From the human T2T-CHM13v2.0 reference genome, Homo sapiens: a stretch of 64,000 nucleotides of DNA. The translations under genes were made by a program, and so were the position numbers. Numbering within the stretch: position 1 is the stretch's first letter; every line of letters begins with the position of its first letter. Of the stretch, positions 23,560-55,219 are shown one piece after another. The notes beneath the pieces are model-generated. The model searched no databases and was not told where the DNA came from. It saw nothing but the letters and a program-made list of their open reading frames with translations. The DNA is taken from NCBI RefSeq assembly GCF_009914755.1, contig NC_060932.1. The stretch is one strand, 5' to 3'.

Positions 23560-25864
23560 TAATCAAGTATTCTTTGTATTCAATTTTATCTCCATCAGTG
23601 GCTCTTTAGCTAGCTATACCTTGCAATTTCAGTTTGTTTATCATTTCAGTGGTTGCTCTAGGGAATTAAATACATATCCTTATCACAGTCTACTTCATAT
23701 TCCTGTTATATCACTTCCTATCTAATGTAATCTGCTGTCTTAACAAGAGCAGAAGTTCGTTGCCTCACCATGCAACCTTTGTGCTATTGTTTCAAATATT
23801 TTATTTCTACATGTTACAAACATTATTATTTGGTGTTCTTTGTAGATTGGTTCTTTCAACCGACTTCCTGGATATATTTTTTCCTCCTTTGTAAAGGGAA
23901 AAAGACACAGGTCTACATAGTACTGAAAGATAAAAGCATCTCAGACTAGTATTCCTTCAATCACGGAAGTGTTTCTTCCACTTTTATCCTATTTTTGGAA
24001 GAGTAATCAACACTCTAAGAACTAAAAGAGAAGGGAACTCGTGTCAGATGTGCATACAATGCTAAAGGAATTTAAAATTATTTACAGCTCCTTCTTCTTT
24101 CCAACTGACTTTTTCATTGGAAATTTGTTCACAAAGTTAAAGGCACATCTCTTAACCAGAACAGAACATTTTGTACAGCAAAACAAGAGAGAAATTTCAA
24201 ACCAAAAAGAGATTTCATCACAAGGTTCGTATTTGGGAAGTAACTTTGCCATCTACCAACTTTGAGTGGTTTCAAAATTTAGTCTAAAATATTCTCATTT
24301 TCAAAGGCAAAGAATGAGAACAGAGAACTTTTAATTTTCAGATAAATCAAATGCATCAAAATTTGGATCTGTGCTTTCCAAGATTTAAGAGCTAGAGGTT
24401 AGAAATTATTTAAATTTTAATTATATGAAAATTAACACCAATTACTCTGATGCGGCTAAATAGAAAGTAGAAAAAAATTTTAACTGGAGACATTCTGTAA
24501 ATTTACTATTTGTGCCTGGCTAGGAACGATGTGTGGGAATGAGCTTCACCTGCCAACGGGAGGTGCATCTTTTTAAAACATGCATCTTTTTAAAAATTAG
24601 AGTCAACAAGACCCAAAATAAGAGTTTTCTAAGAAAGCAAGATATAATTTCATTCTCCCTTTTATGAGAATGTCTGTATGCTTCTCAAAATCTAAAAATC
24701 AAAAGTTTTCTTTTTAAAAGGTACTATGTATACCTGCTGAGACTGGATATTTTAGCAATTGGTTTATTTAGTTTGGTTACTGGTAAACTTTGTATAACCT
24801 ATTATGCCGTCAACAAAAAAAAGCCAATAAAACAATACCTCAACTCTACATTGTTTTTTTTCCCAGTGTATTTTTAGTGACATTATTCCTGACAAATTGA
24901 GAACAGAGGGTCAATGAGACACAATAGGATTTTAAGACAGAAAGGGAAGAAATTGCCTCCTATTGGAGAAGGCATACAATACTTAACTCAGGGTTTTATA
25001 TGTCACTGAGATGAGCAATATCCAACAACTTAGAAAGCTCCCTCATATACCGGCTTGCAAAAAAGAGACACGTAGGTGACGGATTCAAACCCAGTCGAAG
25101 AGCATGGACTTTTAACTCAACTGACAAAAAAAATAAAAAATAAAAAAATAAAGCGGGCGCAGGTGGAGACTGACCACAAAAAGAAATGTACCCCACCAGC
25201 ATCTGGATTGTCACACCCAGGTCCTAAGACTGCCAGTCTCAAGGTTTGTTGTTTAGCCCCTGTGAAAGCCTCACACGGTCACCACAAAGTGTCACCTCAG
25301 TTCTGTGATCCATAGCAGTTTTACTCCATTAACCGTGGCTGGCCTGAAATGCCCGGTCCTGGTCTTGCTTAGATGAGGACTTATGAAACCAAGGAAAATG
25401 TCAAAATAAGTATAGAGAAAATGAAACTCAACAATCCTATACTGATCACATTGTGTAAATTGTGTTTACACAGGTGTAATAACACATTTTGTAATAACTG
25501 GGCTCTTTGTTTAGGCTGATTTAAAGATGCTTAAAAATGCTTAACAGTATTTTTACTACCTGTATCCCTAGGTCGAGTTACCTGCATTTGACTCATAAGC
25601 AATTTCTAAGATTTGGTTTGTCATATTATAAGTCTGCTCCATTAGGTGTCTGCAGTTTAATTGAACATGTAGGTGGTATTATAGTTTAAGGAGGGTTTAA
25701 GCATTGAATGTTAATCAAAAACATTGATAAGCAAAGGAAAAATGAAAGTGACTCCTTTCATGACTGTTGTATGCTCTGTAAGTTGGGTGTAAAGGTTTAA
25801 GGTGGAAAAAACGTACCTCGAGGGAATTAATTTTAATATACGAGATAATAATTAAAGCATGATT

Positions 25865-27889
25865 GGCCGGGGCGCAGAGCAGCAGGTCCGCTTTGTCTCC
25901 CCGGGGCGCCGCGCGGTGCAGTTGGGGCGGCGCGGCGAGCGGGGCGCCCGGGCGCGGGTGCGGGGTGTCGGGGCGCGCGCGCCTGTTGGCCGCTCGCCGA
26001 TTCCTGCCGAGTGTAGAGAGGAGAGGGAGTGAACAGGGAGCGGGGCTTTTGTCTGTTGGTCTCTCTGGACTGAAAACAGGGAGAATAGAAGCCCAAGACT
26101 AAGCTTCTCAAAATGGTTTACTACCCAGAACTCTTTGGGTCAGTCAAGAACCATTTCCAAACAAGGACATGGAGGGAAGGTTTCCTAAGGGAAGACTTCC
26201 TGTCCCAAAGAAAGTGAACCGCAAGAAGAACAATGAGACAAACGCTGCCTCCCTGACTCCAATGGGCAGCAGTGAACTCCGCTCCCCAAGAATCAGTTAC
26301 CTCTACTTTTTTTAATCGTAACACCTCCATTTGTATTACATATGGTGTATGGGTATTGATGAGGTCATGGTATTATATATGGGATTTTTTTCTGTGTAAA
26401 TCATTAAGTATAAGAAGAAACTATGTGACTCTGAGCCTTGCTTTAGAGAATTTACAGTGGACAAATAGGTATCATCAAACCAGTTTTTAATCATTCTGAC
26501 TCAAGTGAAAATGCTCAGAATTTCACACCGTGAATCCACGTTTACAACCCTTACAGGTGGGCCTTCAGGCCTGGTTCGCTACAACGTCTTCCACAACTCA
26601 AACTCCCACCGTGCTCACACAACTGGTCCACTCCTGAGTCCCCCCTTTTTTTTTCATTTAGAATGTAACAAACCTAGTAGTTTATGCAATTGTCTGTATA
26701 TCTCTATATTTTATCCATGTACTCTTTTGATGTATAGAAGTAGTTTGAAACTCATTGTTTCCTTGTGGTAACTGACCGAGATGCTGCCACAGGACCTGAG
26801 ACACTGATGAATGGTGCTATTTTGGACTTTCAACATGCTCCTTGGCGAGGTAGCTCTGATGGAGTTATTTTTTATTTCCATGTTCTAAGAAGGTGTTGGT
26901 ACTCTGTTTCCCTGAATGTTGTTCTCTAGACTGGATTGACTTGTTTTCCTTGTGTCTTCAGTGTGGCTTTCTTCCTCAGTGTTGTAGGTTGAGTGAATGC
27001 TACCAGAGTGTGAGAGACGATTGTCTCGTCGGCTGGCACCCACAGACATGCAGTCACGGTAGTGGGAGCAATCACAAAACTGTAATTTACTTACCAAATC
27101 TCTTCCTTTCCGTTGCCTCGCCTGCCTGACTTAGAGAAAGAAAAGCAATAATTTTACAGGCATTTTGAGGTGTCTCTTTGGGTTCTTTCTGTTTGAAACG
27201 GTATTTGTGGAAAAAAAGAGCAAAACCTTTTTAAATAAATTCCCCCTGAAAAAAACCCAAAACACTGGCATCTGAGTAGGAATATGAAAATGACACCTTT
27301 TCCAAATATTAAATTGGAAAACAATGTCTACAAAATCATGGTACTTTTTTAAAAGGCAGAGCATTCTTTTTTGGCAATTTTGATAAGCAAGGTGTAGATT
27401 TACATCTTTGTCCTTGCTCCCAACGAAATGGATAAACAAAAATAAATTACCATCTACTCATGGAATGTTGTTGTGTTAGCCAGTCTGAAAGCCCACCTTA
27501 ATTTTTATATAACTGTCTTTTAGCTCTTCTTTTGACAGGGCAGGCCTTGTTCTGAACTGTTTCGCTTCTGACTGTTAAACACCGATGACGCATGCACTGC
27601 ACTTCTTTGTTTTCTTCTTGCTCCCCCATTGGCCTGAGTTTCTTGTGCATTACTCCTCTCCCTCCTTTGTTAGAATAGGTATATCAGCTGTGTAAATAGA
27701 GCAAGAAAACAGTATTCTGCATCTGTGGCATTTATGTAGAGTTGCAGCTGTATACTGCTGAAAATGCAGGCTTTTGTAACAGTGTGATCTTTACCGATGC
27801 ACTCATGACAAGTACCCAATGTATTTTAGCTATTTTAGTAGTATTTGTTCAATAAATATGCAAGCTGTAAGGTAAAAAAAAAAAAAAAA
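25865..27889 (+). pseudogene. NREP: Processed (retrotransposed) copy of NREP/P311 mRNA; CDS remnant 26113-26315 frameshifted by a 4-bp deletion
   Basis: Intronless MVYYPELF / VSQEPFPNKDMEGRFPKGRLPVPKKVNRKKNNETNAASLTPMGSSELRSPRISYLYFF* matches the 68-aa P311 protein; CDS span 203 = 207-4 nt; AATAAA 27851-27856; poly(A) 27874-27889; 15-bp TSD AATTAAAGCATGATT at 25850-25864 and 27888-27902. Confidence 0.93.
26800..26819 (+). promoter_or_regulatory. Extended miR-29b complementary site (NREP TDMD-trigger type)
   Basis: GACACTGATGAATGGTGCTA pairs with miR-29b-3p UAGCACCAUUUGAAAUCAGUGUU at nt 1-11 and 15-23, with a 3-nt miRNA bulge. Confidence 0.88.
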
Positions 27890-28959
27890 TTAAAGCATGA
27901 TTACATGGGAGTGTTGCTTCCCATGTACAAAAGCACTTCTTAGGAACTAAAGCACTAATACTTTCTGCAAGAACAATTGTCACTGATTTCTACTTTAGAA
28001 CTATAGGGCTGTGCAAAATGAAACTAAAATCAGAAACTATGACACCAAACAATCCATGTATTCTTACGAAATTCAGAAGATGGCCGTGTCTCTGGTTACT
28101 AGGACTTCTAGAAATTGAGTGCCTTAAAATCCTAAAAATTTTACAGACCATTAATATATTAACATGAAACCTGATCTTCTGCTAATGTAGTATCTGTAAT
28201 TACTATGAGAAACGTTCTATTTAATGATTTTCCATGTTTCTAAAAGTAAACTACACATAAGCAATTTTTAAACTTTTAGTAAAAGAAAAAATTGGTTTGA
28301 TCACACTACCTCTATTCTGGCAAACATGAACCCCTTTAAGGAAAATCATTCAAGTCATATGAACCCATTGACTAATTTATGCATCATTTTAACTAATTTC
28401 TTCCATAGGATTTCTATGTTGAAAATGAAACAATCTTCGATTCTTAAACAGGAGATGGATTCTACGAGTGGCTTTCTATAGGAGAAAAAACTTACTAGAA
28501 TAAATGTTTTATTAGCTTTAGCACATCTACTCAACATTCATAGAACTGCTAGGAATAAAAAGTGAAAAAACATGAAAATGAATGAAAAATGAGACTCAGA
28601 GAGATTAGCTGACGTGGTTCAAAAACAAAAGCCTCAGAGGAGGCCTGCATGCCATGTATGTACTGCTAAAGGGATGTGGTTCTAGAAACGAAAGGGGAGA
28701 GAATAAAATATATATTGGCAATGCTTAAACCAAAATGTATTAAGACAAAACAAACTTAAGGCACTAAAAACCAAGGATAAAAGTACTGAAAATAAATCTA
28801 ATGCTAAAACTTCTCACTGAACTCCAAAAGCAAATCTTTTGAACCACAGTATCATGTTAAAAACTAAGATTTTACAGCTGTGCTACTACTAATAGTGTCT
28901 GTGTGTGTAGATACACAGATGATATATAGATGAACAGAGAGCTGCATAGAGACATAGAT

Positions 28960-29379
28960 TGATAGAGCGATAGATTTTAAAACATTTATTTGCCATTCAC
29001 TACTTTGCAACAATTCTCCCAATTTGGTTTGAAAAGAGACAACAGTTGACTTTTGTTCAAAGTCCAAGTAAAGAGAGAGGCCATGTTTGGAGTGAGAATC
29101 CTTTAATAACTATATTTATTTCCAGAGAACAATAAATACAGAAATTGCAAGCAGTATATGTAACAGTAATATTTTCTTTAAATACAGAATCACCTACTTT
29201 TATACAACTTAACAGGCAAACATGTTATTTTGTTGTTGTTGTTTGGAAATTAGCATTGGGAAAAGCTATATAACAGAGGAAATTCCAAGTAAAATCAAAC
29301 AGTGTTCACTCTTAACTCTAAACACAGTGCTCCCACTACTGGTTCTGCATTGAGGCGGAGGGGAAGGCCAGAGGCAGGC
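28960..29379 (-). other. ATP6V1H: ATP6V1H 3'UTR with tandem poly(A) signals (distal end approximate)
   Basis: Follows the TAA stop; AATAAA on minus at 29115-29120 and 28985-28990; ATTAAA at 29102-29107. Confidence 0.7.
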
Positions 29380-29440
29380 TTAGCTTCGGGCGGCAGCGGT
29401 CTGGGGCTGCTCGGACTGGAGCTGCTTGCCAAGGTATTCC
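29380..29440 (-). CDS. ATP6V1H: V-type proton ATPase subunit H, terminal coding exon
   Basis: Polypyrimidine tract + CAG acceptor (29441-29443), then (W)EYLGKQLQSEQPQTAAARS*; phase matches the upstream exon ending ...CACAACTG. Confidence 0.95.
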
Positions 29441-31799
29441 CTGAAAAAAAAGAATGAAGTAAGGAGAATGAGAATTTCAATAGCAAAGAATCACTTCCAA
29501 AATTGAAACACATTATGCACTGTCATATATACTTACTTTAACATCCAAAAATAACTAAAAAGTCCTAGAAAATTAAACTTTTCCAAATTTCCAAAGTACT
29601 TGTGCTGTATGAATTCTACTTCATGTATCATACACAAACAAGTTATGACAAAGACAAACTAGTCATTCTCCTATTTTTATGAATAACTTGTAAAGTTATT
29701 ACGATTACACAAACAGGTGATTACAAGGAAATGTAATTACTTCCTGGGGAAAGACTACTTTCCTGTTCAGATAAAGGTCTTGTTTACTGCTACTGCCATT
29801 TCTGCAATCTAAGAAGTTCAACATCACCTCAATTACGATTCTGAATGACCTCATAAATGAAAAACAAATGTCCTGCTATTAGAGAATATGTGTATCTTCA
29901 CCCTGGGATGACACAAGAGTACGTGAAAATAAATCACCAAAAGTAGCATTGGGAGTCCCCACACCATCAGGAGCTACTGGTCTGGGGCACTCACTCTGCA
30001 CCAGCACAGTCTAAAGCCCACACAGAGACGGTCAGCCCAGAACCACAGAACAATCCCAGGAGCTGAGTAGCAGCACTCACTCCACAGATGGGGCAATGGG
30101 GCTCAGAGCAGTGGTCCCCAATCCTTTTAGAGCACTCTCATTCAGAAAATAAGCATGTGCCCACAGTATGTGCATATTTAGCTCTAAAGTACATACAGAC
30201 ACCACTGTGAATTCCAGGACAGAAAACAATCTTGTCCCTATTTTCCTTTGAGGCACTTGCCGAAACTTTTGTTTTAGAACCAATTAGGAAGAAGAAAAAG
30301 AGGCTTTTTAAGAAAAAACTATTTAAAAGTTTTCCTCTTATAAAAAAGCATGAGTTTTGGAATAGAGACGTGGGTTTACGTTCCAGCTCCATGACCTCCT
30401 GGGTATTCCCATGGGGGCTCTAGGAGGCACTGGGTATGGAGGCCCTGGCTGGGCTGCAAGCATCAGGTACACTGTCAATACCATCGTCTCTTGCCTATCG
30501 CCTATCAACTGTGTGAGCATCGCCAAGAAACCACCTTTGGGGGCCACCGATGTACACAGGTAAATATGACTCCGCCTCTCTCCACAGTGGTCCAGAAGAG
30601 GGCAAGCATTTCACCTGAGCTGCTCTCCCCCTGCTACTGCCGCCTAGGCCAAAGCAGCAAAGATTTTAAGACAGAAAAGACAGAAGCACTGGGAATGAGG
30701 ACAAGAAGGAAATGTCACGCAGTGGCGGAGCAGCAGGGAGGAGGAACTGGTGGCCCAGAGCATGTGAAGTGTCACGCACCACTCCCCCCAATCCAAAGGC
30801 TGTTCATTTTTTAATACCATGAGACTGAATGAAGCATCCCAGGACATGAAAATGGGTTATGATCTTTTCCATCCTTCAAGGAAAGTTCTTATAACTGACT
30901 CATTAATTTTGGATGTCACATTAAAGTGTTTAATATTCTTGTGCTACCAGGAACTACGCTGACATAATTTAGACAATGGGATCTTATTTCCAACCAGAAG
31001 TTAAGTTCACGCAAAGGCTGAAAGGGAAGCCATCCTATCATCTTTGTTAGACAGGAAAAACAAGAGTTTACAGTCACTATCAATGCTGCTCCTCTGGGAA
31101 TGCCTGCAACTTGGGAGCATTTGTGGTCACACAGATTTGTTTTCTTGGTGGTGGAGGTAATAATATTTATGGCAAATTTCCAGAACTTATAAATATATTT
31201 TTCCTACATATATGTGAGAAATCAAGCCTGAAGTTAGATATGCTTCATTTTAAGGAGGTCTTCAAATATTTCAATTTTAGACTCTTTAGTGTGGAGCCTT
31301 AGAAAACATTTTAAAAGTGTACTCAAAGACACTGTGCCACTCTCCAATGACAGTAAGACGTGGTTCTCTCCCTAAAGCACCAATGTCAAGGACCAACTTC
31401 TAAATGTAAGTTTCCAAAAATGACTAATAAGAATGTATGGGAAAGCCTCCAGGAGCTCAGGCAGGGAACTGGTAAGTTATCACAAAGGGTCCTGTGCGTC
31501 TGGTCACAGACAGGCTCCCACCTGCTCCATCCCTTCCAGAGGCCTGAGGGTAGTTCATTCCCCATATCAGACTTCACTAATACTTAGCAGACAACAAGTG
31601 GTGAAGATAATTGATTTCTTCACAAAAGAAACACTCTTGAAGTGGGGCCAAAGTAGGACAGTAAAACCTAGCACAGGTGCGCTGTTCCAGCAGAGAACGT
31701 AAAGACACATGCAGCCACAGCTTCCACCCTACCATCTTCCATTCATTTTTTTCTTCCTGGTCAAAGATATAAATTACAGGTAACATCCTCTCCTACACA

Positions 31800-52532: not shown

Positions 52533-55219
52533 GAGAATCTAGAAATTAATTTAGAAATTAGAATTCTAATTTAGAAATTAGAAATTAGTTCTGGAAAACG
52601 TTAAATCTAGAAATGTTATGTTTATTAAAAATCATGTGGAATGTTTTGGTAACTTGATTATTATCCTAAAAATTAGCTAAAACACATAAGAGGTTTTTTT
52701 TTCTTTAGTTCATAAGTAACTATTTTAATCACTGTATTTATGGCTCTGCACTTACAGAATAACTAAAATATGCAAAGCAGATAGAAACACCAGAGAACAA
52801 AGTAATATCCATACCCTTGGCCTGGTGAGTTTTTCTGTTATATTAATTTACCTAAGCATAAAAAATCTAGATGGTAACACTCTTATAACTTATTATGCTG
52901 CTTAAGAAAGGGCTGAACAAGAATCTAGAGACAAAAATGAAAAATTCTACGTGAGATCCTCTACCTACAAAAGTCAGTGTTTCTTTCCTGAAGTCCTGAG
53001 CTGTCCATATGCACATATCGTTGCTTCTGCATTAGAGGCTGATTACATTTAAAATCATTCTGTAGGAGAAAAACGATGACATCTTATGATGTGAAACGGA
53101 TGAATTAGGTGTATATACACAAGTTCTCTTAGTTGTCACTGTTTATATATTCTGCCAAATTTATGAATATAAAAATCCAGCACTGCACAAAAGAACAAAG
53201 GGCACACCAGGAATGCCATGGTGGGCACAAAAAGATAAGAGCTGCAGAGGCCCGCGAGTAGGACTGGCCTGCTCAGGCCTCCCAGCTGAGGGCGCCCAGT
53301 GGGTGCCACTGTCCCCTCCCTCCCCAGCAACTCTATTCCTCCTCCACCGCTCCTCACCCACTCTCAGTCAGGGTTATTTATAATCCATTGTTCCACAGAA
53401 ATACAGATGTGATGTGGAAGGGGAGAAACGCTGGTATTCTAACACCTACAATTCAAGGATACAGTTTTGAAATCAATCATAAAATAAATAAGTATTTTCC
53501 CATTATATAACTCCATACTCCATATGATATAAACTCAAATGTATCTCTACATTATCAAGAAACTTAATATTTAACTCCTTATAACAGAATCAAAATCAAA
53601 ATCCAAATCCATATCTGACCCAGTTCCATGATTTCATAAGTAACATAAATTACACTTAAAATGTAATTTTGAAATTATACCTAAAATTTTTTAAATTCAT
53701 GGCAGAAAGTAATAAATGTTAATTTTATTGTATCCAAAGTTACAATTTAATCTGATAAACAAAAACTTCAGGAATAATGCAATATCAAAAACCTAAAAAT
53801 CCTTTAGGGCAGAAAAACCCAGGGATGCAGGCAAAGTGCCGCTGCTGCTGCCTGTCACGCAGACCTTCATGCTTTCATCTGTGCTTGCATTTTAATTATG
53901 TTAAAATAATTATTTCACTATGGAGGGCTAAAATACACCATTTATAATAACTCGTTTCCATTTAAATCGAGCCAATGCTAAAAGAAAAACTCCACTGTAT
54001 TTTCAAGTTTTCACTTGGTAGAAAAGAAAACAATTTAGAGAAATTTACAAGATTCTTTAGAACACCAGCAGCATATTTTAGGTTAAAAAGCCCCTATTTT
54101 AGGCAGGTAGAAAGGTAGTCTTTATGAGTTTAGTATAGACAACTAGGTTACCTGAAAAAAGGTATTGATCCAAACTTCTTTTACATTTGGGGATATACTT
54201 TGCAAAAGATTACTTTCCAAATGGTATTCTATTTAGTCTCAAATTAAACTGGTATTGTAATAAATTATTACTTGAGCAACTTTCATTCTCTGGCACAGGG
54301 AGCCACAGAAATTTATAAGTCACAATCAAATACAGAGATCACAGGTGAATTTTAATCTTCCTTCATACAAAAATTTCTCTATGAAGGAAGTGTGGGAAAA
54401 TACTAAGCTTCTCCATTAAATGCAAAGGAGATAATCGTAGTTAAAACATTAAAATTTAAAAAGTTTGCCATATAATTAGAAAGAGAGAGGAAAAAAGAAT
54501 ACTCTCTCATAAAGAGCAAATAAACCAGTATTTCCCTGTAAAGACAGAATACACTTCCTCTTATAATCACACACAGAAAAATGTACTATGAGACTACATC
54601 AAGTTCCTAAATTCAAGAAAAAAGTCAAATTTAAAAATTTCATCTTCAATACATGATCATCTGAACAACAAAAATTCTCAACTAAAAAATTTCCTCCACT
54701 GGCAAAGGGAAAAGGTCAACATCCTATTTCACACACATCTTGCCTTTCATATTAGGAATATACATTTTTTAAAACAAGAAAACCACTAACCCAACAAGAA
54801 AGACTTCAAGAGAAATACGCTAATAAAATAATAACTGTATTTCAATAGCCCTAATTTCAACACAATGGGAAAATAAAACTTTGACTTTCACAGAAACTTT
54901 AGAAAAACATCTGGCAACTATAAGCTCATTGGTTGCAATGGCCTGAAATTCTATTAAATGCCAACATCCTTTAAATTAAATTCCTGAAAGAGATATAAAC
55001 AAACCATAAGATATGAAATTACTAAATAAATGATTTATGTTGAAAAATCTGGCTTGGGGTAAAGTGAAGTAAGGAGAGAAATCCTGTGATGTATCCTATG
55101 TTTTACTGACAGACCTGAAGTTTTTCCTCCTGCTAAACTGATAAAAACCATTCTGGGGTTTTCACCTTCTGTTTTGATCCCATTCTTCTTGCACTGAAGT
55201 TATGGAAAAAAGTAAAAAA

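What the first reader, a model, noticed from the sequence alone, without database searches (positions are those of the whole stretch)
25865..27889. Non-coding NREP retrocopy that retains an intact miR-29b degradation (TDMD) trigger
Seen: a full-length processed NREP copy (TSD, poly-A, AATAAA). Its CDS is broken by a 4-bp deletion after codon 8, yet its 3'UTR carries GACACTGATGAATGGTGCTA (26800-26819). This pairs with miR-29b-3p at nt 1-11 (one G:U), leaves a 3-nt miRNA bulge, then pairs at nt 15-23. Established: this architecture in the mouse Nrep 3'UTR and its zebrafish non-coding counterpart libra triggers target-directed degradation of miR-29b (ZSWIM8 pathway), independent of the P311 protein. 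Inference: if transcribed, this locus would be a primate-restricted, protein-independent miR-29b-destroying RNA under different regulatory control from NREP. That would amount to retrotransposition re-creating a libra-like lncRNA. Retention of the site alone may only reflect the copy's young age.
Basis: partly seen in the sequence, partly recalled or inferred. Interest (0 to 1): 0.85.

Follow-up and report, generated by a model that had tools for sequence, protein, structure and literature searches.

The report
Dead NREP retrocopy keeping miR-29b site
This is an ordinary, already annotated dead copy of the NREP gene that still carries the parent's miR-29b-destroying site simply because it is too young to have lost it, and nothing seen here shows that it is used.

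Summary
Window 25865-27889 (+) is a full-length processed NREP retrocopy (RefSeq NREPP2). It has five parental exons joined, a 13-15-nt target-site duplication, an A-tail, AATAAA, and a 4-bp deletion after codon 8.

The functional inference has no support from anything testable here.
- The 20-mer is identical in the parent and in two other retrocopies (chr5:158.53 Mb and chr7:23.62 Mb), so this copy is not special.
- The chr8 lineage carries 33 private changes in 1687 nt of the last exon. A given 20-nt window escapes them with P = 0.68, so retention is the neutral expectation.
- The coding part shows 5 non-synonymous to 1 synonymous changes.
- The copy lies in AT-rich DNA, tail-to-tail 1.07 kb beyond the ATP6V1H poly(A) site. 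No transcript, promoter or enhancer is annotated there.
- Published human data assign "most, if not all" miR-29b TDMD to NREP itself in two cell lines.

Two weak leads remain. The 146-nt CpG-island fragment at the copy's 5' end kept 26 of 27 CpGs, against 17 of 30 in the last exon. The site also sits in the copy's longest unchanged run (221 nt, post hoc P = 0.05).

Verdict: ordinary pseudogene, low interest.

The parts
25850..25864 (+). 5' copy of the target-site duplication (AATTAAAGCATGATT; 13-15 nt)
   Evidence: family D3
25865..26010 (+). NREP exon-1 fragment: a 146-nt mini CpG island (GC 0.815, CpG observed/expected 1.15). It has a 19-nt internal deletion and keeps 26 of 27 parental CpGs.
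26011..26189 (+). NREP exons 2, 3 and 4 joined without introns (26011-26056, 26057-26115, 26116-26189)
26113..26315 (+). Remnant of the P311/NREP coding sequence (203 nt). A 4-bp deletion between 26136 and 26137 breaks the frame after codon 8. There are 5 non-synonymous changes and 1 synonymous change. RefSeq NREPP2 spans only 26113-26312.
   Evidence: hub annotation
26190..27874 (+). Last NREP exon (end of the CDS plus the 3'UTR). In the chr8 lineage it carries 28 private substitutions and 5 private indels, including a 50-nt deletion at about 26639.
26800..26819 (+). 20-nt miR-29b-3p TDMD-type site, identical to the parent's. It lies inside a 221-nt run (26773-26993) with no chr8-private change.
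27851..27856 (+). Parental polyadenylation signal AATAAA
27874..27889 (+). A-run (retroposed poly(A) tail; the first two A's are templated in the parent)
27888..27902 (+). 3' copy of the target-site duplication
   Evidence: family D3

Best explanation
This is a neutrally decaying, L1-mediated processed pseudogene of NREP (NREPP2). It probably inserted some 12-24 million years ago in an ape or catarrhine ancestor. That date is an inference from 1.2-1.6% private substitutions combined with recalled primate neutral rates. The miR-29b TDMD site is intact because too little time has passed for a 20-nt stretch to be hit, and selection need not be invoked. As RNA the site would very probably be competent, but the locus has no evident promoter apart from a 146-nt CpG-island fragment carried in with exon 1. 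It therefore most likely contributes nothing measurable to miR-29b turnover.
For: Shown:
- All hallmarks of a processed pseudogene are present.
- The CDS is dead: a 4-bp frameshift plus 5 non-synonymous to 1 synonymous changes.
- There are 33 chr8-private events in 1687 nt, which gives P = 0.68 that the site is untouched. For the chr7 copy the figure is 0.58.
- The exact site also survives in 2 of the 3 other retrocopies.
- Methylation-type CpG decay is seen in the last exon: 13 of 30 parental CpGs are lost.
- The flanks are 31-34% GC with CpG observed/expected of 0.24-0.32.
- The copy is convergent with ATP6V1H, whose AATAAA on the minus strand lies about 1.07 kb away (and hub annotation).
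- No Rfam family matches in 24000-30000.

From print:
- NREP CRISPRi raised miR-29b to an extent 'similar to ZSWIM8 KD', so NREP accounts for 'most, if not all' of the TDMD in SUM159PT and BT-549 cells (PMC13631368, section 10).
- No paper in the library names NREPP2 or an NREP pseudogene.
Against: - The exon-1 fragment kept 26 of 27 parental CpGs, against 17 of 30 in the last exon (Fisher p = 0.0005). With only the 19 CpGs shared by the parent and the chr7 copy, 12 were kept (p = 0.0055). Non-CpG changes there are not reduced (3 in 137 nt). This looks like germline hypomethylation, that is, CpG-island behaviour that often goes with transcription.
- The site lies in the longest chr8-unchanged run (221 nt; P = 0.053, post hoc).
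- No expression, methylation or orthologue data could be consulted, so silence is inferred and not shown.
- The breast-cancer result covers two cell lines only. Its sgRNA sequences were not checked against the 96%-identical exon-1 fragment of this copy.
Confidence: 0.86

Rival explanations
1. The copy is transcribed on the + strand, for example from its inherited mini CpG island. It then acts as an ape- or primate-specific, protein-independent trigger of ZSWIM8-dependent miR-29b degradation, under regulation different from NREP.
For: - The site is identical to the validated parental site and is specific for miR-29b in duplex energy.
- It is flanked by 221 nt identical to the parent, and it lies far downstream of any ORF that starts at the first ATG.
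- AATAAA is retained.
- The 5' CpG-rich fragment escaped CpG decay.
- The site lies in the longest unchanged run (P = 0.053).
- Reviews state that the Nrep/libra site works independently of the protein.
Against: - Retention is expected by chance (P = 0.68), and two other retrocopies share it.
- No transcript or regulatory element is annotated at the locus (hub annotation).
- A 50-nt and a 5-nt deletion lie 161 and 114 nt upstream of the site. Predicted accessibility of the site with 200-nt flanks is lower than in the parent (0.17 against 0.29).
- NREP alone explains the ZSWIM8 effect on miR-29b in two human lines.
- TDMD triggers need substantial abundance (general knowledge, recalled).
Confidence: 0.05
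2. The RNA is irrelevant. Instead, the carried-in 146-nt CpG-island fragment survives as an orphan, unmethylated CpG island with some DNA-level role, such as a weak promoter or protein-binding site near the 3' end of ATP6V1H.
For: - 26 of 27 CpGs are kept, against 17 of 30 in the rest of the copy.
- GC is 0.815 and CpG observed/expected is 1.15, in a 32%-GC neighbourhood.
- There is one GC-box core, at 25925-25930.
Against: - RefSeq lists no functional element there (hub annotation).
- The fragment is shorter than usual CpG-island definitions (recalled).
- Slow CpG decay in very GC-rich DNA could explain part of the retention without hypomethylation (recalled).
- No other NREP copy carries exon 1, so there is no control.
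- GGGCGG is not enriched in the window (8 found, 4 expected).
Confidence: 0.05

Closest known systems
Human/mouse NREP (Nrep, P311) 3'UTR miR-29b TDMD element
   Same: The 20-nt site is identical, and so is the surrounding 221 nt. The pairing architecture is the same: seed, 3-nt central bulge, extensive 3' pairing (architecture described in PMC6175985).
   Different: The parent has a promoter, introns and an intact 68-aa ORF, and it has experimental proof as a trigger. This copy has none of these. It also carries 33 private changes in the last exon, including a 50-nt deletion 161 nt upstream of the site.
Zebrafish libra lncRNA
   Same: It would be a non-coding RNA carrying the miR-29b site, as libra is described.
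   Different: libra is the expressed homologue of Nrep, with a shown behavioural function. This is a retroposed copy at an unrelated locus with no evidence of expression or constraint.
Processed pseudogenes proposed as miRNA decoys (PTENP1 type; recalled, not checked here)
   Same: A retrocopy that keeps the parental 3'UTR miRNA sites.
   Different: Those pseudogenes are transcribed and are proposed to sequester miRNAs. Here the idea is catalytic destruction of the miRNA, and transcription is not shown. A library search for TDMD + pseudogene + trigger (20 papers held the terms; 15 listed by title and abstract start, one probed by passage) turned up no retrocopy trigger.
The other NREP retrocopies of the same genome (chr5:158529320-158531260, chr7:23617069-23618993, chr4:37.77 Mb)
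   Same: All are processed copies of the same mRNA. The chr5 and chr7 copies keep the identical site.
   Different: Only the chr8 copy carries exon 1, the CpG-island fragment. The chr5 copy is 100% identical to the parent's exons, with a 76-nt A-tail and an intact ORF. The chr7 copy starts in intron 1 and sits inside an Alu. The chr4 copy is older (81-89% identity) and has lost the part that held the site.

Membership tests
L1-mediated processed pseudogene | Parental exons joined exactly at the splice junctions, with no introns | tested here: met
   Five exons of chr5 NREP are joined. Exon 1 ends at the parental GTAAGC donor.
L1-mediated processed pseudogene | Poly(A) tail at the parental cleavage site, downstream of AATAAA | tested here: met
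   AATAAA is at 27851-27856 and the A-run at 27874-27889. The parent diverges after GGTAA.
L1-mediated processed pseudogene | Target-site duplication flanking the insert | tested here: met
   13-15 nt, identical at 25850-25864 and 27888-27902.
L1-mediated processed pseudogene | Loss of coding constraint | tested here: met
   A 4-bp frameshift after codon 8, and 5 non-synonymous to 1 synonymous changes.
ZSWIM8-dependent TDMD trigger RNA | Seed pairing, a central bulge and extensive 3' pairing to the miRNA | tested here: met
   nt 1-11, a 3-nt bulge, nt 15-23, with two G:U pairs. Energy is -26.9 kcal/mol, against -18.6 (miR-29a) and -20.9 (miR-29c).
ZSWIM8-dependent TDMD trigger RNA | Site lies outside a translated region | tested here: met
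   The ORF from the first ATG ends at 26217, and the P311-frame remnant ends at 26315. The site is at 26800. That translation suppresses TDMD comes from an abstract seen in a search listing only (PMC12144122).
ZSWIM8-dependent TDMD trigger RNA | Transcribed at sufficient level in cells that express the miRNA | not testable with these tools
   No expression data are available here. RefSeq gives no exons or transcript (hub annotation). No paper names the locus.
ZSWIM8-dependent TDMD trigger RNA | Loss of the site or the RNA raises the miRNA, in a ZSWIM8-dependent way | not testable with these tools
   This needs an experiment. Indirectly, the parent alone accounts for 'most, if not all' of the effect in two cell lines.
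ZSWIM8-dependent TDMD trigger RNA | Site conserved beyond the neutral rate | tested here: inconclusive
   P(site untouched) = 0.68. The 221-nt unchanged run has a post hoc P of 0.053, and a second 201-nt run exists elsewhere in the copy. No orthologues were available.

The most novel reading that the evidence does not exclude
The chr8 copy is the only NREP retrocopy that brought along the exon-1 CpG-island fragment. That fragment has stayed unmethylated in the germline. It drives sense transcription in some tissue, for example germline or early embryo, which would make NREPP2 an ape-specific, protein-free miR-29b TDMD trigger under regulation of its own.
Probability: 0.04. Interest if true: 0.7.

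Novelty: already known. Interest (0 to 1): 0.2.

Why it matters
If the copy were expressed, it would be the first retrocopy-born TDMD trigger. It would also be a lineage-specific way to lower miR-29b, a miRNA with roles in brain, fibrosis and cancer. As things stand, the value is practical. The human genome used here holds four identical copies of the validated NREP miR-29b site. The nearest variants that tell the chr8 copy from the parent are 28 nt upstream (26772) and 175 nt downstream (26994) of the site. Short RNA-seq, CLIP or CLASH reads over the site therefore cannot be assigned to a locus. At least one CLASH pipeline discards pseudogenes outright (PMC13369745, passage).

Tried and rejected
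- Earlier findings of this scan were not open to the session.
- The string NREPP2 gave 2 papers, both false hits on 'Nrep^P2A' reporter names.
- NREPP1, NREPP3, NREPP4, C5orf13P, 'NREP pseudogene' and 'P311 pseudogene' gave 0 papers.
- The TDMDfinder paper (PMC8887481) has no 'pseudogene' or 'lncRNA' in its main text. Its one supplementary file could not be read because of a time-out, so a pseudogene prediction there cannot be excluded.
- EMBO J 2026 supplements. 'NREPP2' was absent from the 12 of 17 files that the search fetched. No table row had a chr8 coordinate beginning 53711-53714 (16 of 17 files searched, file 13 unread). The hg38 place of the locus was recalled, not computed, and multi-mapping reads may have been dropped upstream. 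This is a weak negative.
- An Rfam scan of 24000-30000 found nothing.
- Counting GGGCGG found one at 25925-25930. The motif is not enriched in the window (8 found, about 4 expected), so it is not evidence of a promoter.
- I noted a TATA-like AATATA about 25 nt upstream of the copy's first base. I rejected it as what AT-rich flanks give by chance, and did not test it.
- The bacterial promoter and terminator scan was not used because it does not apply to human DNA.
- Predicted site accessibility is equal to the parent's with 100-nt flanks and lower with 200-nt flanks. This is too model-dependent to weigh.

Full report
**What is there**

The window is CHM13 chr8:54064001-54128000. Positions 25865-27889 on the + strand match the NREP gene on chr5 (112.24-112.27 Mb, minus strand) exon by exon. 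BLAST against the fetched parental exons shows five exons joined at the splice junctions:

| Exon | Window span | Note |
|---|---|---|
| 1 | 25865-26010 | ends at the parental donor GTAAGC; has lost 19 nt between two GCCGA repeats |
| 2 | 26011-26056 | |
| 3 | 26057-26115 | |
| 4 | 26116-26189 | |
| last | 26190-27874 | |

The insert is flanked by AATTAAAGCATGATT at 25850-25864 and 27888-27902. It ends with AATAAA (27851-27856) and an A-run (27874-27889) where the parent continues with unrelated sequence. The coding remnant (26113-26315) lacks 4 bp after codon 8, relative to the parent and to all three other copies. It also differs by five non-synonymous changes and one synonymous change. RefSeq names the locus NREPP2 but spans only 26113-26312. 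The real copy is 2,025 nt long.

**The site**

GACACTGATGAATGGTGCTA is at 26800-26819. I found the four mir-29 hairpins of the same genome with Rfam RF00074 and read the mature miR-29b-3p letters from the two 29b hairpins. The 23-nt length is recalled. Pairing is nt 1-11 (G:U at nt 11), a 3-nt miRNA bulge, and nt 15-23 (G:U at nt 23). Duplex energy is -26.9 kcal/mol, against -18.6 for miR-29a and -20.9 for miR-29c.

Reviews describe the validated Nrep site as a perfectly conserved 20-nt element with a central 3-nt mismatch. It is specific for miR-29b, and scrambling it reproduces the knockout behaviour without affecting the mRNA (PMC6175985, passages; PMC10899785, passages). The observation and the background are therefore both sound.

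**Is retention informative?**

It is not.
- The exact 20-mer occurs four times in the genome: in the parent, in this copy, and in retrocopies at chr5:158529320-158531260 and chr7:23617069-23618993. A fourth, older copy on chr4 (81-89% identity) has lost the segment that contained the site.
- I aligned the last exon of the parent and the three site-bearing copies and assigned changes by parsimony. The chr8 copy has 28 private substitutions, 8 of them at parental CpGs, and 5 private indels in 1687 nt. The chr7 copy has 43 private substitutions. Eleven sites separate chr8 + chr7 from parent + chr5 copy; these are parental-lineage changes or parallel CpG decay.
- When 33 events are placed at random, the site stays untouched in 68% of trials. 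For the chr7 copy the analytic figure is 0.58.
- The site does lie in the longest chr8-unchanged run, 221 nt (26773-26993). The probability of that is 0.053, but the test is post hoc, and a 201-nt run occurs elsewhere in the copy. The chr7 copy shows no such block.

With 1.2% private non-CpG substitutions (1.6% overall) and recalled primate neutral rates, the insertion is roughly 12-24 million years old. That fits 'primate-restricted' but could not be checked against other primates.

**Could it be transcribed?**

Nothing here shows that it is.
- The flanks are 31-34% GC with CpG observed/expected of 0.24-0.32.
- The hub annotation lists no transcript, promoter or enhancer at the locus, and no gene within 100 kb on the upstream side.
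- The copy is convergent with ATP6V1H. That gene's minus-strand AATAAA lies near 28985-28990 and its annotated end at 28959. Read-through from ATP6V1H would therefore give antisense RNA.
- Rfam finds nothing in 24000-30000.

One positive lead exists. This is the only NREP copy that carries exon 1, a 146-nt fragment of the parental CpG island (GC 0.815, CpG observed/expected 1.15). That fragment kept 26 of 27 parental CpGs, while the last exon kept 17 of 30 (Fisher p = 0.0005). Using only the 19 CpGs also present in the chr7 copy, 12 were kept (p = 0.0055). Non-CpG changes are not reduced in the fragment (3 in 137 nt). That pattern suggests germline hypomethylation, although slower CpG decay in very GC-rich DNA (recalled) could contribute, and there is no control copy.

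**Published human data**

In SUM159PT and BT-549 cells, CRISPRi of NREP raised miR-29b about as much as ZSWIM8 knock-down. [quoted passage not shown] This leaves little room for a retrocopy in those cells. It covers only two cell lines, and I could not check whether the guides also match this copy's exon-1 fragment (Dataset EV6 not read).

The paper's supplements hold no 'NREPP2' string in the 12 of 17 files fetched, and no chr8 row near the recalled hg38 position. Both are weak negatives.

No paper in the library names NREPP2 or an NREP pseudogene. A search for TDMD + pseudogene + trigger gave no retrocopy trigger (titles and abstract starts only, plus one passage).

**Competence if expressed**

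The site is 485 nt downstream of the last stop of the P311 frame. The 221 nt around it are identical to the parent. A 50-nt deletion and a 5-nt deletion lie 161 and 114 nt upstream of it. Predicted unpaired probability of the site equals the parent's with 100-nt flanks (0.31) and is lower with 200-nt flanks (0.17 against 0.29). I give this little weight.

**Verdict**

This is an ordinary, annotated processed pseudogene. The intact miR-29b site is passive inheritance. The useful by-products are a mapping caveat, since four identical site copies exist, and the very young chr5 copy noted below.

Noticed in passing
L002:1497-3517 (G000 chr5:158529320-158531260 plus the A-tail): This is a second NREP retrocopy that is 100% identical to the parental exons: 0 differences in 1746 nt of the last exon, and exons 2-4 identical up to the junctions. 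It has an intact 68-aa ORF, the intact miR-29b site, a 76-nt pure A-tail and the target-site duplication GAATGTCATTAAA. It must be extremely recent. A preprint lists NREP among 38 parent genes with polymorphic inserted retrocopies relative to GRCh38 (10.1101/2020.06.07.139212, passages), which fits, but the place is not given there.
   Followed up: partly
L003:1420-3440 (G000 chr7:23617069-23618993): The third NREP retrocopy, with 43 private substitutions, keeps the exact site. Its 5' end continues into at least 60 nt of parental intron 1 upstream of exon 2. It therefore came from a transcript that started in, or retained, intron 1. It sits inside an Alu element.
   Followed up: partly
L005/L006/L008 (G000 chr4:37773981-37776102): This is the oldest NREP retrocopy (81-89% identity). 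It has lost the part corresponding to positions 314-1003 of the chr8 copy, which includes the miR-29b site. It also carries an insertion of about 870 nt between the parts matching 1003-1715 and 1715-2025.
   Followed up: no
window 26113-26312 versus 25865-27889: The RefSeq NREPP2 span covers only the 200-nt CDS-like part. The retrocopy, with both UTRs, the A-tail and the target-site duplication, is ten times longer. The TDMD-type site therefore lies outside the annotated pseudogene.
   Followed up: yes
window 26169-26315: Downstream of the frameshift, an ATG that corresponds to Met21 of P311 opens a 48-codon frame that runs to the parental stop. Given the 5:1 ratio of non-synonymous to synonymous changes, it is probably meaningless.
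   Followed up: partly
window 25925-25930: The only GGGCGG in the copy arose from an A-to-G difference from the parent, which reads GGGGACGG there. This is a curiosity and not evidence of a promoter.
   Followed up: partly
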